Source: Escherichia phage EdH4
Direction: 5' to 3' (one strand)
Sequence record: MK327930.1
DNA: 64,000 nucleotides
The translations under genes were made by a program, and so were the position numbers. The notes beneath the pieces were generated by a model. It was not told where the DNA came from. It saw only the letters and a list, made by a program, of their open reading frames with translations, and did no database searches. The stretch's first letter is position 1, and each line of letters starts with the position of its first letter. This document shows positions 15,277 through 64,000 of this stretch, piece after piece.

Positions 15277-15693
15277 TCAACAGAAAACTTCAACAAATTC
15301 TTCCACAGTTTTAATGTCGTGGGAAAAAGGTTTACGGCTATAACGGGCAATAGCACTATCAACCACCGCCCGGTACTCCAAATCTTCAGAATATTTCATG
15401 AAGCATTGTAGCGTCTCTGGGCAGATAGCTAAATAGCTCCACCACCCCTCTTCAGATTGGTAGTCGAATCCCATACTCTCCAACCATGAAGCATATACGT
15501 CTGCACCCTCAAGCCAGTGAGTGTTTTCATCCAGGAACTTGTTAACAGACATGTGGGCTTCCAAGCATTTATCCAACTCTTTTCCGTTAACCAGCCACGC
15601 ACTGACCGTGGCGCATCCAAGGTCTACAGATTGAGTTGACAGGTTGTATTGGTCATAGTTCTCAGGCTTAACAATGATATCTTCTAATGTCAT
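15277..15693 (-). CDS. Hypothetical protein
   Basis: 138-aa ORF with a GGAG RBS. Confidence 0.55.
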   Translation of the reverse strand: MTLEDIIVKPENYDQYNLSTQSVDLGCATVSAWLVNGKELDKCLEAHMSVNKFLDENTHWLEGADVYASWLESMGFDYQSEEGWWSYLAICPETLQCFMKYSEDLEYRAVVDSAIARYSRKPFSHDIKTVEEFVEVFC

Positions 15694-15712
15694 TTTTCAG
15701 ATCTCCTTATAC

Positions 15713-15740
15713 AAAAATGCCCCACCCTTTCGGGCAGGGC
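15713..15740 (-). terminator. Rho-independent terminator after the SSB-like gene
   Basis: Hairpin gccccaccctttcgggcagggc plus T-run on minus; the same 22-nt hairpin recurs at 25850-25871. Confidence 0.65.
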
Positions 15741-15755
15741 TATGTTAACTAAATG

Positions 15756-16982
15756 TTAAAATGGGATGTCATCATCAAAGACGTACTGTGCTGGATTCTG
15801 ATCCATCGGGTCATCTTCCTCATCATTTACAGGAGGGGCGTCTACAGTGTTTTGCTGTGGAGCGGCTTCCTGTTTGGCAGCTTGAGGTTCTTGATGGTCA
15901 GTGGACTCAGCACCGTTCTTGATCCAATCGTACAACGGCTCAGCCAGATTAGTCAAGACATCTTTTGCTTCTGCAGTAATTGCCACTGCAAAATCATCAA
16001 CTTTCGTTTTCTTGTCAATACGGCGACAAGCGTTCAACACCGCATTACCGACACTGGCACCTACTTCATCTTCAGTTCGGTTGGTGGCTTGAGCATACTC
16101 TTTCTTAAGCTCAATGGTGACTACGTGCAGTGTTTTAGCCACGCCCAGTGGGTCGTCTACCTTAAACCCGCGATCCAGGATGATCTGCAACGCATTGATG
16201 CTATGCCCCGTTTCCACACCGATAGGGTCGTAAGAGGATTTACGCTTGCCACCAGAGCCTTGAGTGCCGTTCTCTGCCTTAGGAGGATAGGCCTTGAAAC
16301 CACTGATAATGTTTCCGGTGTCTTTGTCAACAATGGCTGCAACACGACCACCTACCACCAGGTCTTTAAGCTGCTCATCAGTTACAACCATAGCACCTTC
16401 GCCAATCTTGTGGTCATTAACAGTAACCACGTTGCCAACAATCTGAGTCACATCACCATAGATGCGTAAAACGTCCTGATTGGCATTCTGCTGAGGTTTC
16501 TGCTTCTGGCCTTGTGATTGTGCACCTTGTTGCTGTTTTTGCTGCTGAGTCGCTGCTGGAGCCTCTCCTGCACCCAGCTTAACCATCTTAGCCAGTGAGC
16601 CCTTGTAATAGGTCTTACCGTTATGCTCGTTTGCCTTCAAAGGTATATTTACGATCCATCCTGGCGTTACGGTTTCCCACTTGTCATCAATCTTAACAGA
16701 GACAGAGTCTTGATGACCTGGTTTAAGCAGCTTATCACCCATGCTGATCCAGACTTCTTCACCACCTTGAAGCAGGTTATCAGAGGAATCCAGTTCAGAA
16801 ATCAGTAAAGAGATGGTGTGGCTGGATTCAATTTTCTTACCTTGCCACACAGTGGTTTTAATACCTGTTGTAGGATCAGCACCTTTGATAGGCTTGATGC
16901 TAACACGTTTAATCATGCCGTGAGCCAGTAAAACAGTTTCACGCGGATTCATTGGGTTAGCGAATTGTTGAATAACGCTCAT
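15756..16982 (-). CDS. Single-stranded DNA-binding-like protein with SSB-type acidic C-terminal tail
   Basis: C-terminus ...DDDIPF is identical to the E. coli SSB tip; Q-rich linker QQQKQQQGAQSQGQKQKPQQ; 408 aa. Confidence 0.6.
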   Translation of the reverse strand: MSVIQQFANPMNPRETVLLAHGMIKRVSIKPIKGADPTTGIKTTVWQGKKIESSHTISLLISELDSSDNLLQGGEEVWISMGDKLLKPGHQDSVSVKIDDKWETVTPGWIVNIPLKANEHNGKTYYKGSLAKMVKLGAGEAPAATQQQKQQQGAQSQGQKQKPQQNANQDVLRIYGDVTQIVGNVVTVNDHKIGEGAMVVTDEQLKDLVVGGRVAAIVDKDTGNIISGFKAYPPKAENGTQGSGGKRKSSYDPIGVETGHSINALQIILDRGFKVDDPLGVAKTLHVVTIELKKEYAQATNRTEDEVGASVGNAVLNACRRIDKKTKVDDFAVAITAEAKDVLTNLAEPLYDWIKNGAESTDHQEPQAAKQEAAPQQNTVDAPPVNDEEDDPMDQNPAQYVFDDDIPF

Positions 16983-17347
16983 TATTTGTCTCCTTGTTCT
17001 TCGTTAGTGCTTGCCGTGTGTGCGAACCCTGCTTGAATTAATTTGTCCTGAACTTGAGCCAACAGGCCCATTGCAAAACTTGTAGTCCCAGAGAGGGCCA
17101 TCAGCATATCTCGTTGTTGAGCTACCCAACCTAAGGCATAGTCCAAACGACGATATTTTTCTTCTTCACGCAAAGCTTGGAATAATTGTTCAGCCTCTGG
17201 CTGTTGTGTAAGCTCCTGAAGTCTTCCCATGAAAGAAGAAAGCACTAGCAGAAGAGACACTTGATCTTTACTTAACCCTAAGAAAAATTCTTGAGGTTGT
17301 TCTTGCTCGTTCATCGCAACCGACGTTTGATCGTTCATTTGTTCCAT
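16982..17347 (-). CDS. Hypothetical protein
   Basis: 121-aa ORF, start overlaps the upstream stop. Confidence 0.55.
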   Translation of the reverse strand: MEQMNDQTSVAMNEQEQPQEFFLGLSKDQVSLLLVLSSFMGRLQELTQQPEAEQLFQALREEEKYRRLDYALGWVAQQRDMLMALSGTTSFAMGLLAQVQDKLIQAGFAHTASTNEEQGDK

Positions 17348-17430
17348 TATGGAATCTCCGATTTTATTTGAACAACATAGAAGGAGACACTATTTTAGCA
17401 TCCCCTTCTGTAAATTACAATAGGTATTTG

Positions 17431-17676
17431 TTAGCCAATCACTTCGAAAGTTCCCCAATTCCCGTCCAGCAGGCAGGTGATCGGATCCCCATCGTCGTCA
17501 AAGATTTCAAAGTTTTCAGCATCCAGGATGTGGCCCTCGAACACAATACTTTCGTCGCCACCACCAGAAATAACAGCGTATTCCTTACCTTGAGTCAAGT
17601 TTTGACACCCTTTGCCACCAAAACCTACTTCAACACAACGTACTTTCTGTCCTGCGCGAGCAACTACTTCAGTCAT
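17431..17676 (-). CDS. Hypothetical protein
   Basis: 81-aa ORF. Confidence 0.5.
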   Translation of the reverse strand: MTEVVARAGQKVRCVEVGFGGKGCQNLTQGKEYAVISGGGDESIVFEGHILDAENFEIFDDDGDPITCLLDGNWGTFEVIG

Positions 17677-17693
17677 CTTAAGGTCTCCTGATA

Positions 17694-18014
17694 TTAATCG
17701 TCAAGTTCAAAATAGATTTTAACAGCTTCATCAAAGATTGGAATCCCGATGTTGTTGATAAGCTGCCAAACTACCATATCTTTACCTGGGTCTGGGAGAA
17801 TGTCAACCTTTCTCCATGCGCTGTATATCCAGTTTGGACCACCTTCTGCACTAACTGGCAGATTTTCACCAGCCTCCTGCAGATACTTATACAGCAAAAG
17901 ATATTCTGGATACTCTAGAACACTGTCCTCTGTAGTATATAGCAGTTCACGGTATACTTTTAAGAACCCTGCTGGGGTGATGTTTTCAGTCTTCATTTGC
18001 TGCTTCTCCTGCAT
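17694..18014 (-). CDS. Hypothetical protein
   Basis: 106-aa ORF. Confidence 0.5.
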   Translation of the reverse strand: MQEKQQMKTENITPAGFLKVYRELLYTTEDSVLEYPEYLLLYKYLQEAGENLPVSAEGGPNWIYSAWRKVDILPDPGKDMVVWQLINNIGIPIFDEAVKIYFELDD

Positions 18015-55991: not shown

Positions 55992-58064
55992 TTATGAGAA
56001 GTCTGGCGGGACAACATCTTCTACATACCCTTTCAGAGCAACCTGCCCCATATGAAGCACGGTAGAATCTCTAGCGGTAACAGTGATGCTGTCAGACATT
56101 ACTTGCGGGTATGCCCACACATACTGTTTTACCTCAGGATATCTATACTCTATAGTTGCCATGTTTCCGCAAATACATCTCCATAAAAATTCTTGGTAAT
56201 TCCTGGTTGGGTCGTAACCATATACCGGAGCAAGCTCTTTACTAGGAACGAACCCTGCAAGGTATTGTATTTCAGACGGTTGCCAACCTAACTTAACGAT
56301 AGGTATGTTTACAGACTCTTTTGCCTTTTCAATACCTCCCTGCATCACCCAATCGTAGCACTCGGTGCAGAAGAAATCAAGAGCACCTGCTTCCTTTTTA
56401 TATTGGTCAGCAAGGTTAAGCTTTTGCGTAAGCTCGGTTTCCATAATGGTTGGGAAAAACAGCAGAGCTGTCATCTGAGCTGATGCAGCGTGTGCCTTTA
56501 TTGCCTTTGAAATAGCCGCAATACGAGCGCCAAGCTTACCACGACAAAATGCTACATACTTATCGTAAACACCGCCAGTTTTAGGATCGTCAATAGTCCC
56601 AATATCTAATGCATACTCGCCTGTCTCATCATAAAACGCCTGTTTTGTAGGGTAATCATAAATACAAGGTCTACGAGTATCGGTATTGTACCACCACCAC
56701 GGTTCACCAACCTGCATAATCACTGGCAGGTTGTTTCTCATAGCGGCTGATGCAAAATTCTTAAATACTGCAGTAAGGAAATTCATACCCTCTTCAATGG
56801 TTGGAGACAGGAGGTAGCTACAAGGTGTATACCCTGTTTTAGCGTAGTTATCGTTCCAGTCTCTTTGGGTCCATTCCAACGGGCAGGCATCGCTGAAAAG
56901 CTCAAAACTTACAGATTGCATAACGTCGAAGTTATGTCGTTTGGCATTGTACATAAAATCATCATGCCATTTATAAGCTGCAGCGTTTAGCGCTCCTGTT
57001 CTGTTTATAGACCATTGGGTTCCTGACCATGTGTAGTCATAATAATGACTCATACCAACATAATGGTTTATGGTTCCGGTATAGCCCAGACGCTTGATAT
57101 TGTTCAACACCCTTAAAGGAGACACGTTCCACATATCGTCATATGCGGTGCAGATCCCAACATCGTGCTCTCTCACCTGGATATTGTTAAGTTGCATCAT
57201 TTTCCAGCCTGTGTCTGGCTGAAGCAGATCTAGGCGCAACTCACACTCTACATTTTCCGTTCTCGGGTCTGTGCTATTACTTACCCAGTCTTTAGGCATA
57301 AGCGGTATTAAAATCCTTCTCACCTGCCGAGGATCAACACCCATCATGTTGTTGTTCTGATCCATCCCGACGCAGTCCTCAAAATCAATATGAATTTCTG
57401 CAACATTCTTATCCTCTGAGATGCTGACAGCATATTGAGCTAAAGGAACATAGATGATTGTGCCATCAACAAGGTCTACAGTCATAATCATCTTTTCAGG
57501 AGTGGAGAAGTTGCTGGCGTTGGTTATTGACATTCTGAACCAAAGCTTGGTGTTTCTCATCTCATAGTGATCATCAAACCCAATACCGAAATGGTCATAC
57601 TTGTCAACTGTTTCCCAAATGCACCCAGCCATACCTCCATATGTTCTTGACACTAAACGGTTAATACAACAGTTGTTATCTGCAACAATACAGGTACTTT
57701 CAGTCTGCTGAGTGGTTGTAACCCAATATCTTGGGTGAAACATTCTCTCCTCAACAGTATCCCAAGATATCCTGTCAAGATTCTCATCTGAAACTATTGT
57801 ACATTTCGCCCTTTGTGTTCCAATCATCACCCCTTGAGATTTTGATGAAAACTCCATAAAGAAGCTTCTTGGCAACCTGTTGGGTAATTTGTCAACAATT
57901 TCCACGGGGATCTCAATACTGGTTGCCCCAACTGGGATAGTTACATCGCCCTCAACATGATCATAATCCCTACCAGGAACGGCAGTATCCTGAACTGTTC
58001 GGTAATGAAACCGTGCAGCCATTGTAGAGTAATCACGGTAAGGTTTAAAAACAGCTGTTGCCAT
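55992..58064 (-). CDS. Tail-associated structural protein (possible carbohydrate-active domain)
   Basis: 690 aa; N-terminal beta-sandwich-like segment then a large Trp/Tyr-rich domain; no confident family. Confidence 0.55.
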   Translation of the reverse strand: MATAVFKPYRDYSTMAARFHYRTVQDTAVPGRDYDHVEGDVTIPVGATSIEIPVEIVDKLPNRLPRSFFMEFSSKSQGVMIGTQRAKCTIVSDENLDRISWDTVEERMFHPRYWVTTTQQTESTCIVADNNCCINRLVSRTYGGMAGCIWETVDKYDHFGIGFDDHYEMRNTKLWFRMSITNASNFSTPEKMIMTVDLVDGTIIYVPLAQYAVSISEDKNVAEIHIDFEDCVGMDQNNNMMGVDPRQVRRILIPLMPKDWVSNSTDPRTENVECELRLDLLQPDTGWKMMQLNNIQVREHDVGICTAYDDMWNVSPLRVLNNIKRLGYTGTINHYVGMSHYYDYTWSGTQWSINRTGALNAAAYKWHDDFMYNAKRHNFDVMQSVSFELFSDACPLEWTQRDWNDNYAKTGYTPCSYLLSPTIEEGMNFLTAVFKNFASAAMRNNLPVIMQVGEPWWWYNTDTRRPCIYDYPTKQAFYDETGEYALDIGTIDDPKTGGVYDKYVAFCRGKLGARIAAISKAIKAHAASAQMTALLFFPTIMETELTQKLNLADQYKKEAGALDFFCTECYDWVMQGGIEKAKESVNIPIVKLGWQPSEIQYLAGFVPSKELAPVYGYDPTRNYQEFLWRCICGNMATIEYRYPEVKQYVWAYPQVMSDSITVTARDSTVLHMGQVALKGYVEDVVPPDFS

Positions 58065-58750
58065 TAACCCTCCTGTCTAGTTGCGTTTACTGTAATACTT
58101 TCACAATAAATGGTTGTGGTGTCCCAATCAGGTCTTACGTCAGGAACATACAGCAAAGTAGCCAGCCCACCAACTCCAAACTGGTTTTCTTCCCATACTG
58201 ATCCGAAGCCAAGAGCTGTAGAGTCCCCTTCAAAACCAAAAGCTTGCCCTTGCGATTCTGTAAGACGCAAATGACAAGGCAATGGTAGCATATCTAAGAT
58301 CTGATCGATAGACTGCAATATGTCAAAGCAAGTTTTTCTAATATTTATGTCAAACCTGAAGTTGTCTCCTTTCCACGTATCGAAATTGTCTCTTCCGAAC
58401 AATTGTCGCAAGGTGGAGATGACATCTTCGCGAGTCCCGCCCCTTGATGCTGCGGCCTGCTGAATAATTAGTGTGGCACGAAAATCAGCATCTGAAAGTC
58501 CATTCCTAAGAATACCAAGTTGATTACCAACTTCGTCAAGGTATCTTCCGCTGGCATTGTTAAGCAATCTTCCTTCAGCCAAACCTACCAGCATCTTATC
58601 AACATCCTCCAACCTTTTAAGGTATACGGTTAAGAATGTGACTAAATTAACCTTCTCAGCCAGAAAATCTCCAGGCAGGTAGTCAAGACCTCCCTGAACA
58701 AAATCTGGCAGAGTGTGGATGTGGTTAACATCCGACTTAATCTCTGCCAT
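58064..58750 (-). CDS. Putative baseplate or tail-fibre-associated protein
   Basis: 228 aa; position equivalent to P2 gpI after a baseplate-J-like gene; sequence similarity not confirmed. Confidence 0.5.
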   Translation of the reverse strand: MAEIKSDVNHIHTLPDFVQGGLDYLPGDFLAEKVNLVTFLTVYLKRLEDVDKMLVGLAEGRLLNNASGRYLDEVGNQLGILRNGLSDADFRATLIIQQAAASRGGTREDVISTLRQLFGRDNFDTWKGDNFRFDINIRKTCFDILQSIDQILDMLPLPCHLRLTESQGQAFGFEGDSTALGFGSVWEENQFGVGGLATLLYVPDVRPDWDTTTIYCESITVNATRQEG

Positions 58751-58761
58751 ATCTCGCCGCC

Positions 58762-60252
58762 TTAAATAGTTTGTTGGAAAGTTATATTACTTTCGTCGAG
58801 GTCAAACACCTCAGTCATGTTCGCAACAATATCGTTTGTAGTGTAAGCTTCATCAGAAGCTCCTACGGATTTAACTTGAATTACCAGTCTATTAAATCTG
58901 CCTATTGACACAGCAGCAGATGCAGCACCTACCAATTGGATATTATACAACGTATCTGCAACATCCAGTCCGTTAACAACCTGCAAAAGAGCCTCTATAA
59001 TGGCATCTTTTTCGGTTGTGGAAAGCGCAGCACCGGAGTAGGTAATTCTCATATCCAGGCGGTAGGTATTTGCCTTGGAGTAATAAATTCTTTCAGTCTG
59101 ACCGTCAGATGTAGTGACATCGTAGAAAATATTACCATAAGTCCTGTTCGTACAGGCTATAGTTTGGTAAAGTGCCTGGCAGATATCCTCTGTTGCACCA
59201 CCAAACACCACCACTTGAAACTTATAAGGTGGTATACCTTTCGCATCCGTTTTATCGGTGTTGTTAGAGAACACTCTTACTTTCTCAACACCTTTCACCT
59301 CGCTTACAGCGCTAAGAATTGCAGGACGGGTAGCCTTAGATGTTAACTGTTTTGTGCTGGAAGCTCTTAAGCGATACTCTGAGTCTTTCTCAACATCCCT
59401 GCCCTCATTGAATCTTTCTCTGTTGGTAAGCTTGATAAATCCACTGGGAGTAGGTGACATTGTTGTCACGGTTTCTGCCTCTCTTGACAGCTCACCAGCC
59501 TCGTTAGCGATAACATCCAAGGTGATAGTTCTTTCCCCTACAATCGGGGATACTCTGAAATCTACCCTGCTATTAAGTCCAACTTGATCAAGATTTGAAT
59601 TGTACCCTATCCACAACGTTCCTGTCAACATATCGATCTGAATCAAATCGTCGTTCAACAGAGTTGTATTATCGACAATGAATTGCTTAATCTCTCCGTA
59701 AAAGCTTGGCAGATCAGAAGAGTCCAGAGCCTTATCTGTTAAAACCAGACTTTTTGTTTTGATACTTCCATCTGTCTGGTTGGTAATTTGAAAGTTGTAT
59801 TTACCAATCCTTAGGTCTGGAGCATTTATTCTGTGAGCAATAAGATTCCCTGCTACTTGCACATCATTGCTAAGAACAAAGTTGCCACTATCCAACGTAT
59901 AAGTTTTGGAATCGTAAATCATATTGTACGGCACAGTTGTGTTGATCGTCAACTGGCAGGTACCTGATGATTTAGAACGGCCTCTTCGGTAAATACCTCG
60001 TCTTCCAAGAAGTTCGTCTAGGTAAATACCTTCTGCCCCATACAGCGTTTGTGATGCGTACACAGATGCTGCCATAAGAATAAGTTGATACTCTCGCTCG
60101 TTGAAAATAGTGGTCAGCTTATCTGCAACGGAGTTACTTTGTACGTTGAAGTTTTCGCCAAAAGCACGGATCAGGCTTTGCTTAGTTTCAACGATTAGGT
60201 CATTTAGGGTTGGTATAACGAAACCAGCCTCTGTCAATCCATACTTAGCCAC
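58762..60252 (-). CDS. Baseplate J-like protein
   Basis: 496 aa; block VEKDSEYRLRASSTKQLTSKATRPAILSAVSEVKGVEKVRV parallels recalled P2 gpJ ESDTDYRLRIQQAF...GRVADISV. Confidence 0.55.
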   Translation of the reverse strand: MAKYGLTEAGFVIPTLNDLIVETKQSLIRAFGENFNVQSNSVADKLTTIFNEREYQLILMAASVYASQTLYGAEGIYLDELLGRRGIYRRGRSKSSGTCQLTINTTVPYNMIYDSKTYTLDSGNFVLSNDVQVAGNLIAHRINAPDLRIGKYNFQITNQTDGSIKTKSLVLTDKALDSSDLPSFYGEIKQFIVDNTTLLNDDLIQIDMLTGTLWIGYNSNLDQVGLNSRVDFRVSPIVGERTITLDVIANEAGELSREAETVTTMSPTPSGFIKLTNRERFNEGRDVEKDSEYRLRASSTKQLTSKATRPAILSAVSEVKGVEKVRVFSNNTDKTDAKGIPPYKFQVVVFGGATEDICQALYQTIACTNRTYGNIFYDVTTSDGQTERIYYSKANTYRLDMRITYSGAALSTTEKDAIIEALLQVVNGLDVADTLYNIQLVGAASAAVSIGRFNRLVIQVKSVGASDEAYTTNDIVANMTEVFDLDESNITFQQTI

Positions 60253-60322
60253 GTCACTCCTCCGGTATGAAAATCTCTACAAGGTATTTTACCAAATTTT
60301 GTAACAATAGTCAATCTGAGCA

Positions 60323-60348
60323 TAAAAATAAACCCCGCCGAAGCGGGG
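60323..60348 (-). terminator. Rho-independent terminator after the J-like gene
   Basis: Hairpin ccccgccgaagcgggg with T-run on minus. Confidence 0.6.
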
Positions 60349-60357
60349 CTTTAAAGA

Positions 60358-63300
60358 TTAGTCGTGAGACTCGTTCCAAGGTCCCTGGAAGCTTGAGTTA
60401 GAACGACTAACGATCACAGTGGGACAGGAGATTGTGACACCTGTCACGCTCGACGTTGACCACGGTGTGTAAATCTCGATAACAATGTCTATAGTTTGTT
60501 CACCCAGACCTGTTATCCCTACCGCACACATGCCGTTGTTGTCGTTAAAATACTTCTTGCCAGCAAGGATCTGATGACCAGCTATCCATGCATTCAGTTG
60601 GGAGCTGGCAAGAGTACCATTCAGTTTAAAGAAGAATGTTACGTTCTTACCCTGACCTGAAACGTTATCTACGTATCTCCACCTCCAACGGCAAACCCTT
60701 TGCTGGGAGTTATATACTGGAGCACAATCTCCGTAAGTCCTGTGTGCAACAATCGCACCTTCGAACTGGTTAGCACGGATAACAGAAGCTTCTACACGAC
60801 CACGGAAGGTACCTCCGGTTGCATCTATGGTGCCTCTAAAGCTACCATTATTGGCATAAACATCACCACGGAAGGTACCACTGGTGGCGTTAACTGCCCC
60901 TGTGAAGTTACCAGAACTGGCGTTGATGTTGCCTTTCACCCACACATCCATAAATTGGGCGTGCCCGTTCTTGTTAATATACCAACCGTATTTATGGTAC
61001 CCGTTGCCATCGTAGTTGTTTGACGAAATTTCTTGTGCGATCTTGGCAGAGGAGATCGTGCCATTCTCTATAAAAGCGTCTTTCAAGAACGCTTGGTTGT
61101 TCTTGATTGCGAAAGCAAGGGTTGCTGTTCCATTTCCAGGGTTGTATACCGCAAAATTGTTTGCACTAACCATGAAGTAGGATTGAACTTGTCCTCCAGA
61201 CCCCTCCATGCCCAGCTGGATACCTGCAACATACTTATTCCCTGCAGAGTCTACCTGAATCTTAGCTCCCCACTGAGCATCTATTTTACCCTCAAGTGTT
61301 GTTACAGCTTTAGAGGTATTAGATACTGTAGCCCTGAGCTCATCAATATTACCCATTTCGTCAACAATTTCTTGTTTTGCAGAGGTAAGTTCTTGACGGA
61401 TCGCTGCGGCTGTATTATTAACAAGATCAACTGTTGTACTATTAGTTTCTTGAATAGATGCTTGCAGATTGGCAACCTCTTTCTGCACATCATCTTCCAG
61501 CTTGGTGATCTTCCCTGTAGCTGCCACCAGATCCTGCTTAATAGCTTCCGTTGTCTTATTTAGCAGATCGGTTGTTGCCTTGTTGGTTTCTTGAATAGAG
61601 GAGTTAAGTTTGCTCTCAGTATTCTTCAACTCTTCCCGCAGAGTACCTTGAGTTGCAGTTATTTGCTCACTCAATGCTTGAGTTTTACGATTAACAAGAT
61701 CAACGGTTGATCTATTTGTTGTCTCGATTAGTGACCCAAGCCTACCAGACTCTGCTGCAAGTTTATCGTCAAAGGATTGCTGAGCTGCTACCAGCTTACT
61801 GTTAAGGGCAGAAATTTCTCCATTAACCCCTGTAAATTTTTCTGTCGTCTCTCTGACAACACCCTCTATTGTATCCCCAAGCTCTTCAAAAATGCTAGTA
61901 ACACGGTCATTGACTGCACCAACATTTTTATCCATTTCCTTGACTGCATTATCAAGATTGGCGGTAAGCTCTTTATAAGTCTCTGTCTTTTTGAACTCAG
62001 CATCAATCTGTGGCATAAGATCTTCTATGGATGTGTAACAGCGGGCTGCACACTCCACAAAAGCAGATGAACCAAAAGCATTTGTTGTCCTGATATACCA
62101 GTAATAAATCTTATCGTTCTGCAGACCTTCAGATGTCCAAGTTGAACCAACACCCATACGAGTGGCTTTTGAAGTAACGGTTGCATCACTGGTATCTGGC
62201 AATCTTGTCATCCCAGATGTCCAAAAGTCGTACTGGGTGCTTACACTTGCTAAATCCCTACTATGCGGAATCAAGGTGATAGCAAAGTATCCTTGCTTAA
62301 CCTCTACAGAAACCGGAGCTTCAGGTGCCTGAATGTTAAACTCACAGTACGCTTCTGGAGATACACCACCTTTATAAGATGTTGCAACCACGGTTGCTGT
62401 GTATGACCCTTTGGTCAAACCTTCTACTCTGACAAACTGCTCAACTGTCTGTGCTGTCCAAACAATCTCTCCGTTCTTTCTTACCTGCACAATATTTTGA
62501 GCGTAAGTCCCAACGTTGTCCCAAGCCAAAACACCGTGAGTTACTTCCCCAGCTTGGAGAACGGAGTATCTGAAGTTTTGCGGCTGAGCTACACCGGACG
62601 GGGATATCGGAATATCTACATCACCGGAATCCGGAAGTTGCCCTGTGGCATCATTCCACTCTTTAGCATCTTGACGAAGTTTTACCTTGACACCGCCCTT
62701 TTTGGTGAACTCCCATTCAAGAACCCTCATTTCTTGGCCCACTATACCAATACTTGGGAGGTCCATTGTAACGTAACGACCAGGTTTAAATTTGAAACCT
62801 CGCATATTGCAGGTGACTTCAATAATCCTGCCAGCTCTGGCACGTCTTAGGAAGATTGCAGAAACACGCTGAGCTTGATAAGGACTGGTAACAAAGCGAT
62901 AGTCTATATCGATTATCTTTCTTTCTCCATCCTTCTCTATCCACTCTGGGACAAACACTGATGGGAAATCTGTTTCAGAATACCCTTTGGTAGGACTGGT
63001 GAATCTGCCAGTTATTGTGTTGGATCTTTTGTCAAATGAGGCTTCCGGATAGATCTTGACCTCACCACAGACACAATCCTCACTCAGTGTCATTGTTGCC
63101 GGGCCATAGTATGCACCAACCAGCAAACCATACTTACCAGCTACATAGCTGAGATCTGCACCACAAGCTTTCAGCATTTCTGCCATAATGCTTGCTGGGG
63201 CCTCATCCATGTCAAACTCACCGTTAATGGTGTAACGTCGCTCACTGGTTCCGTCAGCGTTTTTTACCGCCTCGTCGCATATGTTGGCAGCCTCCTTGAA

Positions 63301-63957
63301 GGACTCCCAGTTAATGGTTTCGTCAGGACATTTAAGGTACGTTCTTAAATAGTCTAGGATCACCAAGGCCGCGTTATTGGTATACACCTCTTTACTGATA
63401 CGAGGATCATAGCATTTTTTACCAACCTTGACAAGTGTAACGTTTGGCAACCCAAAAGGAAACTTGTTAGGGTCAAACCTGAAGCTGGCACGTAGCCAAC
63501 TGATCCCTCTACCTATCATGTCGGGTGACCATGATGGGCAGTGTGCACCCATGAAAGGATCAGATGTTTTTCTGTCGTTATGTAGCTCCCACGATACCAG
63601 ATCTCCATACGAGGAAATAGGATTACCGTCGATAAGTATATCTTCTATACCTTCCAGAGGGTGATTGGCAAGAACAATAGCACAATGGAGGGTTCTGTCG
63701 CTATCCTGCTCCAAAAACGCAAGCAATCCGGATGTGCGTGTCTTCCCATACACTACAGAGCAGGGTGCAGCAGAAGATCTGAGAAGCTTTTGTCTATCTT
63801 GCTGACTTCTGTAAGATTTGTTGCCCTCAAAAATCTTATCCAGAGTTCTGGTGGTAACAGTGTTCAGGCTGTCAGCCAGAGCTGCCTTGGATGCGTTCCA
63901 GTCATAACTTGAAGATCTTGCAGAAGCAACGATGTTATCAATCATTGCAATTGGCAT
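60358..63957 (-). CDS. Central tail fibre / host-specificity protein, lambda gpJ-like
   Basis: 1199 aa; VEVKQGYFAITLIPH, IYYWYIRTTNAFGSSAFVE, NKYVAGIQLGMEGS and C-terminal fibre repeats align to recalled lambda J blocks. Confidence 0.85.
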   Translation of the reverse strand: MPIAMIDNIVASARSSSYDWNASKAALADSLNTVTTRTLDKIFEGNKSYRSQQDRQKLLRSSAAPCSVVYGKTRTSGLLAFLEQDSDRTLHCAIVLANHPLEGIEDILIDGNPISSYGDLVSWELHNDRKTSDPFMGAHCPSWSPDMIGRGISWLRASFRFDPNKFPFGLPNVTLVKVGKKCYDPRISKEVYTNNAALVILDYLRTYLKCPDETINWESFKEAANICDEAVKNADGTSERRYTINGEFDMDEAPASIMAEMLKACGADLSYVAGKYGLLVGAYYGPATMTLSEDCVCGEVKIYPEASFDKRSNTITGRFTSPTKGYSETDFPSVFVPEWIEKDGERKIIDIDYRFVTSPYQAQRVSAIFLRRARAGRIIEVTCNMRGFKFKPGRYVTMDLPSIGIVGQEMRVLEWEFTKKGGVKVKLRQDAKEWNDATGQLPDSGDVDIPISPSGVAQPQNFRYSVLQAGEVTHGVLAWDNVGTYAQNIVQVRKNGEIVWTAQTVEQFVRVEGLTKGSYTATVVATSYKGGVSPEAYCEFNIQAPEAPVSVEVKQGYFAITLIPHSRDLASVSTQYDFWTSGMTRLPDTSDATVTSKATRMGVGSTWTSEGLQNDKIYYWYIRTTNAFGSSAFVECAARCYTSIEDLMPQIDAEFKKTETYKELTANLDNAVKEMDKNVGAVNDRVTSIFEELGDTIEGVVRETTEKFTGVNGEISALNSKLVAAQQSFDDKLAAESGRLGSLIETTNRSTVDLVNRKTQALSEQITATQGTLREELKNTESKLNSSIQETNKATTDLLNKTTEAIKQDLVAATGKITKLEDDVQKEVANLQASIQETNSTTVDLVNNTAAAIRQELTSAKQEIVDEMGNIDELRATVSNTSKAVTTLEGKIDAQWGAKIQVDSAGNKYVAGIQLGMEGSGGQVQSYFMVSANNFAVYNPGNGTATLAFAIKNNQAFLKDAFIENGTISSAKIAQEISSNNYDGNGYHKYGWYINKNGHAQFMDVWVKGNINASSGNFTGAVNATSGTFRGDVYANNGSFRGTIDATGGTFRGRVEASVIRANQFEGAIVAHRTYGDCAPVYNSQQRVCRWRWRYVDNVSGQGKNVTFFFKLNGTLASSQLNAWIAGHQILAGKKYFNDNNGMCAVGITGLGEQTIDIVIEIYTPWSTSSVTGVTISCPTVIVSRSNSSFQGPWNESHD
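61320..62010 (-). repeat. Internal tandem repeats encoding a coiled-coil stalk inside the J-like gene
   Basis: Repeated peptide IQETN(K/S)(A/T)TTDL(L/V)N(K/N)T(T/A)(E/A)AI(K/R)Q(D/E)L and repeated nucleotide blocks (ttggtttcttgaatag...). Confidence 0.55.
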
Positions 63958-64000
63958 TAATACCTCCAGACATCAACAACTATAGAATCTTTCATGTCGA
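63957..64000 (-). CDS. 3' end of the upstream tail gene (partial, truncated by the window edge)
   Basis: Open frame ending ...DMKDSIVVDVWRY with TAATG overlap onto the J start. Confidence 0.4.
   Translation of the reverse strand, partial: DMKDSIVVDVWRY

What the first reader, a model, noticed from the sequence alone, without database searches (positions are those of the whole stretch)
61320..62010. Expanded internal-repeat coiled-coil stalk inside the J-like protein
Where lambda gpJ has a short linker between its fibronectin-like region and the C-terminal fibre, this protein has about 230 residues of repetitive coiled-coil sequence (repeats of ...IQETN-x-TTDLVN-x-TAEAI-x-QEL...) that is also repetitive at the nucleotide level. 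Repeat-driven length variation would change the reach of the central fibre and is a likely recombination hotspot.
Basis: seen in the sequence. Interest (0 to 1): 0.4.

Follow-up and report, generated by a model that had tools for sequence, protein, structure and literature searches.

The report
Repeat-built coiled-coil shaft in J-like fibre
The region encodes a roughly 240-residue helical shaft inside a lambda-J-like tail fibre protein of an rV5-type E. coli phage; part of it is built from three old, diverged repeats, related phages carry versions with 3, 4 or 6 repeats, and shafts of this kind are already known and common in this protein family.

Summary
The window comes from a Vequintavirus, an rV5-like contractile-tailed coliphage. 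Its protein is 100% identical to that of phage EdH4. The finding lies in a 1199-aa J-like protein (60358-63957, minus strand; orthologue of rV5 gp37).

Between the second Ig/FN3 domain (aa 547-652) and the Phage_Tail_Tip domain (aa 878-1017) sits a proline-free insert of about 238 aa. Lambda J has about 20 aa at this junction. AlphaFold2 predicts one continuous helix, and the hydrophobic residues recur every 11 residues.

- **Repeats:** only the C-terminal ~140 aa are significantly repeated, as three units of 44-48 aa (z 9-12, 32-38% aa identity). At the DNA level the repeats are weak: about 50% identity, exact matches of 15 nt or less, and nothing from TRF.
- **Length variation:** it is real but discrete and old. 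In 114 Vequintavirus genomes the shaft has 3, 4 or 6 units (43, 58 and 13 genomes). Flanks are mostly 88-100% identical, whereas synonymous sites in the shaft are saturated and dN/dS is 0.09-0.17. The alleles reassort freely against the backbone, so this is cassette exchange, not slippage.
- **Family context:** in 48 diverse relatives this junction holds 16-2473 aa, and 34 of the 46 inserts tested have internal repeats.
- **Precedent:** coiled-coil shafts at this position are solved in F-type pyocins.

The feature is an ordinary member of a known kind. Whether this fibre is central in a myovirus is unresolved.

The parts
60358..63957 (-). J-like tail fibre gene (1199 aa; orthologue of rV5 gp37; 100% identical to the phage EdH4 protein)
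   Evidence: ORF list. phrog_31 'central tail fiber J', E 3.6e-165. Pfam Ig_J, Ig_J_second and Phage_Tail_Tip. tblastn and protein hits.
62002..62481 (-). Two Ig/FN3-like domains: Ig_J (aa 493-545) and Ig_J_second (aa 547-652). They form the conserved N-terminal flank of the shaft.
   Evidence: Pfam E 3.3e-5 and 1.7e-30. Aligns to lambda J 666-832. 96-100% aa identity between shaft alleles.
61288..62001 (-). Helical shaft, aa 653-890. It is proline-free and predicted as one continuous alpha-helix with hendecad (11-residue) hydrophobic periodicity.
   Evidence: AF2 helix over residues 20-259 of the aa 640-900 segment, pLDDT 88. LIV periodicity at 11 and 3.67 residues, z 6-7, and none at 7 or 3.5.
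61744..62001 (-). Non-repeated N-terminal part of the shaft (aa 653-738)
   Evidence: Pairwise scores against the repeat units mostly fall within the shuffle range.
61612..61743 (-). Repeat unit A (aa 739-782, 44 aa = 4 hendecads), core TTNRSTVDLVN
   Evidence: A-B z 10.3, A-C z 9.0. The repeat finder D2 copy at 61690-61720.
61471..61611 (-). Repeat unit B (aa 783-829, 47 aa), core ETNKATTDLLN
   Evidence: B-C z 12.2. D2 copy at 61558-61588.
61327..61470 (-). Repeat unit C (aa 830-877, 48 aa), core ETNSTTVDLVN. This is the unit best conserved between alleles (64-67% aa identity).
   Evidence: D2 copy at 61417-61447.
61233..61968 (-). Divergent allelic cassette. Nucleotide identity to the 4-unit and 6-unit alleles is mostly 33-72% here, against mostly 88-100% in the flanks. 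The edges are approximate: aa 664 on one side and aa 900-909 on the other.
   Evidence: Sliding nucleotide identity. Runs identical in all three alleles end at 61969 and resume at 61233. pS 0.64-0.77 inside against 0.07-0.25 in the flanks.
60907..61326 (-). Phage_Tail_Tip domain (aa 878-1017), the beta-prism 'central straight fibre' homologous to lambda J 843-991. It forms the conserved C-terminal flank.
   Evidence: Pfam E 3.3e-38. PDB 8iyk, 8xcj and 25vf alignments. No amino-acid difference between alleles over aa 899-1104.
60361..60645 (-). C-terminal 95 aa, a second and milder variable patch that assorts independently of the shaft allele
   Evidence: 81-90% nucleotide identity to 366V but 96-100% to YN3. 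dS 0.755 against 0.081.

Best explanation
The region encodes the alpha-helical shaft of a lambda-J / central-fibre-type protein carried by an rV5-like myovirus.

**What it is**
- About 238 proline-free residues with an 11-residue hydrophobic repeat form one long helix per chain.
- By analogy with the solved F-pyocin central fibre, three chains would pack into a trimeric coiled coil. It would be about 35 nm long if fully extended at roughly 0.15 nm per residue (inferred).
- The shaft separates the FN3/Ig domains from the distal beta-prism tip.

**How it grew**
- The C-terminal 140 residues arose by ancient internal duplication of a 44-aa unit (four hendecads).
- The shaft behaves as a replaceable cassette within the genus. 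Three discrete alleles with 3, 4 and 6 units (238, 318 and 420 aa; roughly 35, 47 and 62 nm) sit between near-identical flanks and are shuffled among backbones by homologous recombination in those flanks.
- Each allele is under purifying selection.

**Most likely role**
- It is a rigid spacer that sets how far the distal tip is held from the baseplate. The end segments, which adjoin FN3 and the beta-prism, are conserved, while the middle varies in unit number.

**Shown:** the helix prediction, the periodicity, the repeats, the alleles, the mosaic boundaries and the selection regime.

**Inferred:** the trimeric coiled coil, the lengths in nm and the spacer function.
For: - **Domain layout and the lambda comparison:**
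- **Repeats:**
- **Helix:** single helix with pLDDT 88. LIV periodicity at 11 and 3.67 residues has z 6-7, with none at 7. The hendecad layout keeps a constant phase over about 16 turns.
- **Structural precedent:** the PDB F2-pyocin fibre 25vf aligns to aa 726-998, E 3e-18. Its shaft is a solved trimeric coiled coil lying between FNIII-2 and the beta-prism (PMC12874032 sections 5-6; 10.64898/2026.02.24.707460 section 8).
- **Alleles:** 3, 4 and 6 TN-x-x-T-x-DL-x-N units in EdH4, 366V/rV5 and YN3, counted as about 43, 58 and 13 of 114 genomes. The three IMG/VR Vequintavirus contigs carry the same classes.
- **Mosaic structure:** flanks are mostly 88-100% nucleotide-identical, the shaft mostly 33-72%.
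- **Selection:** pS is 0.64-0.77 in the shaft against 0.07-0.25 in the flanks, and dN/dS is 0.09-0.17.
- **Reassortment:** the shaft allele is uncorrelated with the backbone, the J N-terminus, the J C-terminus and other fibre genes (Mantel rho about 0). One ICTV species (FFH2) contains both 3-unit and 4-unit genomes.
- **Siphovirus comparison:** the closest siphovirus homologue, Seuratvirus Skure (56% identity), has only about 68 aa at this junction.
- **Published model:** RBPseg describes a Vequintavirinae fibre with a central-fibre-like N-terminus, a large coiled coil and a C-terminal beta-helix (PMC12143355).
Against: - Trimer formation and the coiled-coil geometry were not modelled; only a monomer could be folded.
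- The periodicity is hendecad rather than the heptad reported for the F2 shaft. Packing may therefore differ, or the helices could fold back into a bundle.
- No experiment links shaft length to adsorption.
- The position of this protein in the virion is unknown. Cryo-EM of two BASEL Vequintavirinae resolved density for only three of nine annotated fibres, and this fibre class (TC5) was not among those the paper reports as observed (PMC12143355).
- The phi92 baseplate structure has a P2-type spike at the centre (PMC13450770).
Confidence: 0.7

Rival explanations
1. The shaft is a metastable fold-switching element. As in the F7 pyocin central fibre, the coiled coil would convert to a beta-prism nucleated by the downstream Phage_Tail_Tip domain when the tip binds its receptor, releasing energy or remodelling the tip.
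For: - It occupies the same position, between FNIII-2 and the beta-prism seed, as the 163-residue switching segment of F7 (PMC12874032).
- phmmer aligns aa 726-998 to the F2-pyocin fibre.
- The hydrophobic period is 11 residues, the same period as the published SxSxxMxxLxS strand pattern.
- One forward and one reverse match to that pattern lie directly before the tip (aa 841-859) and are conserved in all three alleles.
- The preprint predicts such switches in 21 of 24 siphophage central fibres.
Against: - The diagnostic pattern is not enriched in the shaft: 2, 3 and 5 matches against 2.5, 3.3 and 3.5 expected from shuffles.
- Hydrophobic spacing here is 4 and 7 within the hendecad, not the 3 and 8 of the M/L positions.
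- The phage has a contractile sheath and its own spike, so it needs no such energy source.
- The segment that would switch varies almost two-fold in length.
- No multimer or alternative-conformation prediction could be run.
Confidence: 0.12
2. The shaft is mainly a docking platform for other fibres, as in F-type pyocins where side-fibre trimers bind the coiled coil. On this reading the alleles differ because they pair with different partner fibres.
For: - Side fibres bind the F2 and F7 shafts (PMC12874032 section 5; 10.64898/2026.02.24.707460 section 8).
- Vequintaviruses carry many fibre proteins whose attachment order is unknown (PMC8594841).
- The only other locus segment associated with the shaft allele is the 3' end of the upstream gp41-type fibre gene (ANOSIM R 0.34-0.46, Mantel rho 0.52, p 0.001).
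Against: - The association is not obligate. gp41 allele 5 occurs with all three shaft alleles, and it lies only about 3.6 kb away, so linkage could explain the association.
- No other fibre segment covaries with the shaft.
- No acidic docking patch like that of F7 was identified.
Confidence: 0.12
3. The repeats are an active contingency locus. Unit number would change frequently by slippage or unequal crossing-over between the DNA repeats, producing length heterogeneity within populations.
For: Unit number differs among genomes (3, 4 or 6). The two extra units of the 6-unit allele are tandem 44-aa copies.
Against: - TRF finds no tandem repeat.
- Paralogous units share at most 69% nucleotide identity, and the longest exact repeat is 12-15 nt in every allele.
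- All 120 closest proteins are 1199 aa.
- Spans are invariant in every listed genome of each class.
- Within-class divergence is 1.6-4.8%.
- Even the orthologous units of the 4-unit and 6-unit alleles are only 74-85% nucleotide-identical.
Confidence: 0.03
4. The helices are apolipoprotein-like amphipathic 11-mer repeats that bind lipid or membrane rather than forming a coiled coil.
For: Sub-threshold Pfam hits to ApoLp-III (34.1 bits, cut-off 36.3) and to Apolipoprotein A1/A4/E. The periodicity is 11 residues.
Against: - Both hits are below the curated cut-offs.
- Only 2-3 hydrophobic positions occur per 11 residues, a narrow stripe typical of bundle cores.
- The homologous position is a solved trimeric coiled coil.
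Confidence: 0.03

Closest known systems
Central fibre protein of F-type pyocins (F7 CFP; F2 PA0641, PDB 25vf/25vj/26ci)
   Same: [quoted passage not shown]
   Different: - The pyocin shaft is about 163-178 aa, is described as heptad-based, binds side fibres and fold-switches.
- The shaft here is 238 aa, hendecad-periodic and built partly of TN-x-x-T-x-DL-x-N repeats, and it lacks enrichment of the SxSxxMxxLxS pattern.
- The host particle here is a contractile phage, not a non-contractile tailocin.
Lambda gpJ (PDB 8iyk, 8xcg, 8xcj)
   Same: It shares the Ig_J_second and Phage_Tail_Tip domains (31% and 30% identity) and belongs to the same PHROG.
   Different: Lambda joins the two domains with about 20 residues and has no coiled coil. 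Its N-terminal hub region is about 180 aa longer. Its C-terminal LamB-binding domain is unrelated.
Seuratvirus (Queuovirinae) J-like tail tip protein, e.g. phage Skure
   Same: It is the closest non-Vequintavirus relative, at 56-59% identity on both sides of the shaft. The three upstream genes (Dit-like, phrog_2048, DUF6950) are collinear and 34-44% identical.
   Different: It is a siphovirus. Its shaft is only about 68 aa and has no TN-motif repeats.
T1 gp33 central fibre (PDB 9l9p) and BASEL 'tail needle' fibre classes TC3/TC4/TC9/TC5 (RBPseg)
   Same: These are J-like fibres with coiled-coil segments of varying length before a beta-helical end. T1's shaft also contains a tandem duplication (alignment). 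TC5 includes a Vequintavirinae fibre with a large coiled coil (PMC12143355).
   Different: The repeat families differ. The T1 repeats are near-perfect copies, whereas those here have diverged to 32-38% identity.

Membership tests
Lambda-J / central fibre protein (tip attachment protein J) family | Tandem Ig/FN3-like domains (Pfam Ig_J, Ig_J_second) | tested here: met
   Ig_J_second E 1.7e-30, above the cut-off. Ig_J scores 24.4 bits, below its 29-bit cut-off. Aligns to lambda J 666-832.
Lambda-J / central fibre protein (tip attachment protein J) family | Phage_Tail_Tip (beta-prism central straight fibre) domain | tested here: met
   PF09327 E 3.3e-38, 131 bits against a cut-off of 22. Aligns to lambda J 843-991.
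Lambda-J / central fibre protein (tip attachment protein J) family | N-terminal hub-forming region homologous to siphovirus J proteins | tested here: met
   phrog_31 covers aa 143-1057. 56% identity to Seuratvirus J over aa 48-717. No Pfam hub domain reached E 0.1.
Lambda-J / central fibre protein (tip attachment protein J) family | Gene follows a distal-tail-protein / hub / K-like gene set | tested here: met
   In the near-identical genome CarlMeissner, a Dit-like gene (phrog_1302), phrog_2048 and DUF6950 precede J. They are collinear with Skure. These genes lie beyond the end of the window.
Lambda-J / central fibre protein (tip attachment protein J) family | Forms the tip of a non-contractile tail, closing the tube | tested here: not met
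   The genome is a Vequintavirus myovirus encoding a sheath, tube initiator, hub and central spike. The place of this protein in the virion cannot be determined with these tools. The rV5 orthologue gp37 is a virion protein by mass spectrometry (PMC3606486).
Trimeric coiled-coil shaft of central fibre proteins (F-pyocin type) | Long uninterrupted helix between the last FN3 domain and the beta-prism | tested here: met
   AF2 helix over aa 659-898, pLDDT 88. No proline between 650 and 890. Position shown.
Trimeric coiled-coil shaft of central fibre proteins (F-pyocin type) | Coiled-coil hydrophobic periodicity | tested here: met
   Periods of 11 and 3.67 residues, z 6-7. The heptad period of 3.5 is not significant, so this is a hendecad variant.
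Trimeric coiled-coil shaft of central fibre proteins (F-pyocin type) | Trimeric knobs-into-holes packing | not testable with these tools
   Only monomer prediction was available.
Fold-switching coiled coil (F7 pyocin type) | SxSxxMxxLxS pattern repeated through the segment | tested here: not met
   2 matches against 2.5 +/- 1.6 expected; the other two alleles give the same result. There is only one forward/reverse pair, next to the tip.
Fold-switching coiled coil (F7 pyocin type) | Alternative beta-prism conformation | not testable with these tools
   Needs multimer prediction with varied alignment depth, or cryo-EM.
Slippage-prone tandem-repeat (contingency) locus | Near-identical tandem DNA repeats | tested here: not met
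   TRF finds none. 50-52% nucleotide identity between units and at most 15 nt of exact match.
Slippage-prone tandem-repeat (contingency) locus | Length heterogeneity among very close relatives | tested here: not met
   120 of 120 closest proteins are 1199 aa. Spans are the same in every listed genome of each allele class.
Diversity-generating retroelement target | A template-repeat copy of the variable region nearby | tested here: not met
   No second copy of the shaft in the 64-kb window at DNA or protein level. The differences between alleles run the whole length of the cassette and include insertions of whole repeat units. A base-by-base adenine bias was not tallied.

The most novel reading that the evidence does not exclude
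A contractile-tailed phage carries a complete siphovirus-type tip module (Dit, hub-like protein, DUF6950, J) whose location in the virion is unknown. Its J shaft exists as three discrete exchangeable length cassettes of roughly 35, 47 and 62 nm. The most novel reading not excluded is that this module forms a separate fibre assembly whose reach, or a retained F-pyocin-like coiled-coil-to-beta-prism switch, is tuned by cassette swapping to match host surface layers of different thickness.
Probability: 0.12. Interest if true: 0.6.

Novelty: new member of a known kind. Interest (0 to 1): 0.3.

Why it matters
Coiled-coil shafts of variable length in J-like central fibres are already documented. Examples are the F-pyocin structures, the T1 model and the RBPseg atlas, which includes a Vequintavirinae fibre. 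The BASEL paper also shows strong allelic variation at roughly this gene's position in its fibre-locus alignment, as far as I can map it. The feature itself is therefore ordinary.

This analysis adds three modest points:
- The variation in Vequintaviruses is confined to a sharply bounded shaft cassette with three ancient alleles (3, 4 or 6 hendecad-based units). The alleles are under purifying selection and reassort freely.
- The FN3-to-tip junction is a family-wide site of expansion by internal duplication (16 to 2473 aa; 34 of 46 inserts tested are repeated).
- The cassette boundaries define natural splice points for engineering fibre length in rV5-like therapeutic phages.

The role and position of a siphovirus-type tip module in a myovirus remains an open question, and it is now easy to test.

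Tried and rejected
- **Tandem Repeats Finder** at minimum score 30 found nothing in the region.
- **PDB search with the shaft alone** gave only non-significant coiled-coil hits, namely influenza HA2 and HIV gp41 constructs at E 0.26-0.9. I treated these as composition and periodicity matches.
- **Fold-switch signature:** the SxSxxMxxLxS regex was not enriched over shuffles.
- **Search for a covarying partner** across 14 fibre loci of about 41 kb each. Only the 3' end of the neighbouring gp41-type gene is associated, and not obligately. I rejected it as evidence for a specific docking partner.
- **BLAST self-comparison** to detect repeats in relatives failed, because enveloped HSPs are culled. 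I replaced it with windowed diagonal scores.
- **IMG/VR scan** for more alleles returned only three Vequintavirus loci, all of the known classes.
- **DGR-like template copy:** none in the window.
- **Chi sites:** none in window 58000-64000, so none at the cassette edges.
- **Apolipoprotein-like reading:** the Pfam hits are below their cut-offs.
- **Bil ubiquitin-like defence,** which targets central tail fibres, was considered as a selective agent. The paper gives no site information, so this was left untested.
- **Trimer or alternative-conformation structure prediction** was not possible with the tools. The second structure job was not used, because a monomer would not be decisive.
Full report
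**Identity and context**

The finding lies in a 1199-aa ORF on the minus strand, 60358..63957. The 6-kb end of the window is 97-98.6% identical to many Vequintavirus genomes, which are rV5-like myoviruses of about 137 kb. The protein is 100% identical to a protein of Escherichia phage EdH4.

PHROGs assigns it to phrog_31, 'central tail fiber J', at E 3.6e-165. Pfam finds Ig_J (aa 493-545), Ig_J_second (aa 547-652) and Phage_Tail_Tip (aa 878-1017). Between the last two there are only sub-threshold hits to helical families: ApoLp-III at 34.1 bits against a cut-off of 36.3, plus Apolipoprotein and others.

In the near-identical genome CarlMeissner the gene is preceded by three genes: a distal-tail-protein homologue, a phrog_2048 tail protein and a DUF6950 protein. 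It is followed by a Baseplate_J wedge gene. The same genome also encodes its own tape measure, tube initiator, hub and central spike further upstream.

The four-gene module is collinear with the tail-tip module of the siphovirus Seuratvirus Skure, at 34-59% aa identity. The rV5 orthologue, gp37 (1279 aa), was detected in virions by mass spectrometry (PMC3606486).

**Checking the observation**

The stated coordinates correspond to aa 650-880. Lambda J aligns to aa 498-669 and aa 891-1046, with only lambda residues 836-858 in between. The 'short linker in lambda versus about 230 residues here' comparison is therefore correct.

The best off-diagonal self-alignment of aa 650-895 scores 221, against 54 +/- 10 for shuffles (z = 16). 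Dissection shows three units: aa 739-782, 783-829 and 830-877.
- Pairwise z is 9-12, and 0 of 500 shuffles reach the observed score.
- Amino-acid identity between units is 32-38%.
- The preceding 90 residues are at most marginally related to these units.

At the DNA level the repetition is weak.
- TRF finds nothing.
- One 31-nt family has copies at 87% and 65% identity.
- Codon-aligned identity is 50-52%, and the longest exact match is 14-15 nt.
- blastn self-hits are 42 nt at 83% and 59 nt at 73%.

The helical insert and the internal repeats are real, but the repeats cover about 60% of the insert and are old.

**Structure of the segment**

The segment has no proline between aa 650 and 890. 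AlphaFold2 on aa 640-900 without an alignment gives one continuous helix over aa 659-898, with mean pLDDT 88.

Hydrophobicity and Leu/Ile/Val occupancy show strong power at periods of 3.6-3.67 and 11 residues (z 5-7). There is none at 3.5 or 7. Written in rows of 11, the hydrophobic columns keep a constant phase for about 16 rows, and 44 aa equals four hendecads. This is the signature of a hendecad-based helical bundle.

Trimer formation is inferred from homologues, not shown here. phmmer aligns aa 726-998 to the F2-pyocin tail fibre (PDB 25vf, E 3e-18) and to T1 gp33 (PDB 9l9p). In F2 and F7 pyocins the segment between FNIII-2 and the C-terminal beta-prism is a solved trimeric coiled coil that binds side fibres. 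In F7 it also converts to a beta-prism on receptor binding (PMC12874032; 10.64898/2026.02.24.707460).

The published sequence hallmark of that switch, SxSxxMxxLxS, is not enriched here. There are 2 matches against 2.5 expected, and only one forward/reverse pair at aa 841-859 next to the tip.

**Variation among relatives**

All 120 closest database proteins are exactly 1199 aa. A second Vequintavirus allele (rV5, 366V; 1279 aa) is 96-100% identical in 50-aa blocks on both sides of the shaft. Across aa 651-900 it is only 44-66% identical, and it is 80 aa longer. A third allele (YN3; 1381 aa) equals the rV5 type plus two extra tandem 44-aa units and a 14-aa insertion.

The core motif x-T-N-x-x-T-x-D-L-x-N occurs 3, 4 and 6 times respectively. 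Among 114 Vequintavirus records the three classes number about 43, 58 and 13. Every genome listed in the spread samples of a class shows the same span. Three IMG/VR contigs fall into the same classes.

Nucleotide identity is mostly 88-100% in the flanks and mostly 33-72% in the cassette. The edges lie near aa 664 and aa 900-909.

Synonymous differences are saturated inside the cassette (pS 0.64-0.77) and low outside (0.07-0.25). dN/dS inside is 0.09-0.17. Orthologous units of the 4-unit and 6-unit alleles are 74-85% nucleotide-identical. Paralogous units never exceed 69%, and the longest exact repeat is 12-15 nt.

In an alignment of 14 fibre loci, within-class shaft divergence is 1.6-4.8% while between-class divergence is 34-73%. 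The shaft allele is uncorrelated with the backbone, the J N-terminus, the J C-terminal patch and the other variable fibre genes. It is only loosely associated with the neighbouring gp41-type fibre gene: Mantel rho 0.52, and one gp41 allele pairs with all three shaft types. Records assigned to the same species (FFH2) carry different shaft alleles.

These data indicate ancient, functionally constrained cassettes exchanged by recombination in the conserved flanks. They do not indicate current repeat slippage.

**Family-wide view**

Among 48 diverse relatives (representatives of 50%-identity clusters) that have both flanking domains, the insert at this junction ranges from 16 to 2473 aa, with a median of 436. 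Of the 46 inserts of at least 70 aa, 34 contain clear internal repeats, including every insert longer than 500 aa. The TN-motif repeat itself is confined to Vequintaviruses.

The nearest siphovirus homologue has about 68 aa at this junction. So the shaft is expanded relative to lambda and Seuratvirus, but it is unremarkable for the family.

**Prior knowledge**

- RBPseg modelled BASEL fibres. It describes J-type 'tail needle' fibres with coiled coils of varying length, and a Vequintavirinae fibre with a central-fibre-like N-terminus, a large coiled coil and a C-terminal beta-helix (PMC12143355).
- The BASEL paper reports very strong allelic variation in a large fibre gene 16-19 kb downstream of the tape measure gene. 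By my mapping that matches this gene's position (PMC8594841; coordinates).
- The phi92 structure shows a P2-like central spike and leaves one fibre unassigned (PMC13450770).
- Whether the J-like protein is central or lateral in rV5-like virions is not settled by anything I could find.

**Verdict**

The feature is a real helical shaft that is very probably a trimeric coiled coil, partly built from three ancient 44-48-aa repeats. It most likely acts as a spacer that sets the reach of the distal tip. In the genus it exists as three discrete exchangeable length alleles.

The proposed mechanism (a repeat-driven recombination hotspot with length heterogeneity) and the 'central fibre' context do not hold as stated.

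The feature is a new member of a known kind, and interest is low to moderate.

Noticed in passing
window 60358-63957, plus genes beyond the window end (seen in L005 15126-16694): The J gene is the last gene of a complete siphovirus-type tail-tip module (Dit-like, phrog_2048, DUF6950, J). The module is collinear with that of Seuratvirus (34-59% aa identity), yet it sits in a myovirus that has its own hub and central spike. Database annotations conflict between 'central tail fiber J' and 'lateral tail fiber'. Its place in the virion appears to be unknown.
   Followed up: partly
window 60361-60645 (aa 1105-1199 of the J-like protein): This is a second, milder variable patch at the extreme C-terminus: dS 0.755 and 81-90% nucleotide identity to the rV5-type allele. 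It assorts independently of the shaft allele (EdH4 = YN3, 366V differs), which shows recombination inside the gene. It may be the receptor-contacting end.
   Followed up: partly
window 60794-60921 (aa ~1013-1055): A direct DNA repeat of 62 nt at 71% identity encodes short 'SGxFxG' beta-helix repeats just after the Phage_Tail_Tip domain. This is a second internal-repeat region in the same protein.
   Followed up: no
window 55992-58064 (minus strand, 690 aa): This protein hits Pfam 'non-contractile tail sheath protein' TIM barrel (E 4e-80) and N-terminal domain, plus Calx-beta. BASEL annotates the orthologue as a lateral tail fibre with glycosidase and deacetylase domains.
   Followed up: no
L005 10256-15027 and alignment columns 15450-17700 of the 14-locus alignment (off-window, upstream of J): The 3' end of the gp41-type lateral fibre gene has at least 7 alleles among 14 genomes. 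A long allele that carries an extra 110-aa ORF occurred only with the 3-unit shaft (4 of 5 such genomes). Another allele pairs with all three shaft types.
   Followed up: partly
phage collection records MG0656xx (e.g. L017-L020): Eighteen GenBank records labelled 'Campylobacter phage' (UNVERIFIED) are Vequintaviruses about 99% identical to coliphages in this gene. The host labels look doubtful. One of them (D1, L007) has a truncated J ORF of 958 aa.
   Followed up: no
PDB 9l9p chain S (T1 gp33), alignment: The T1 central fibre shaft contains a near-perfect tandem duplication of about 33 aa (EVIATETEALSREIDQLKAQIGDDIQASLTDIR, twice). A recent repeat-driven length change may therefore be real in Drexlerviridae, even though it is not here.
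   Followed up: no
window 61288-62001 (shaft protein): There is weak, non-significant similarity (E 0.26-0.5) to the influenza HA2 coiled coil, another spring-loaded trimer. It is probably a composition and periodicity match.
   Followed up: no
window 61033-61563 and 61777-62070 (plus strand): Long antisense ORFs of 176 and 97 aa overlap the shaft-coding region. Because this region is highly divergent between alleles, they are very unlikely to be genes.
   Followed up: no
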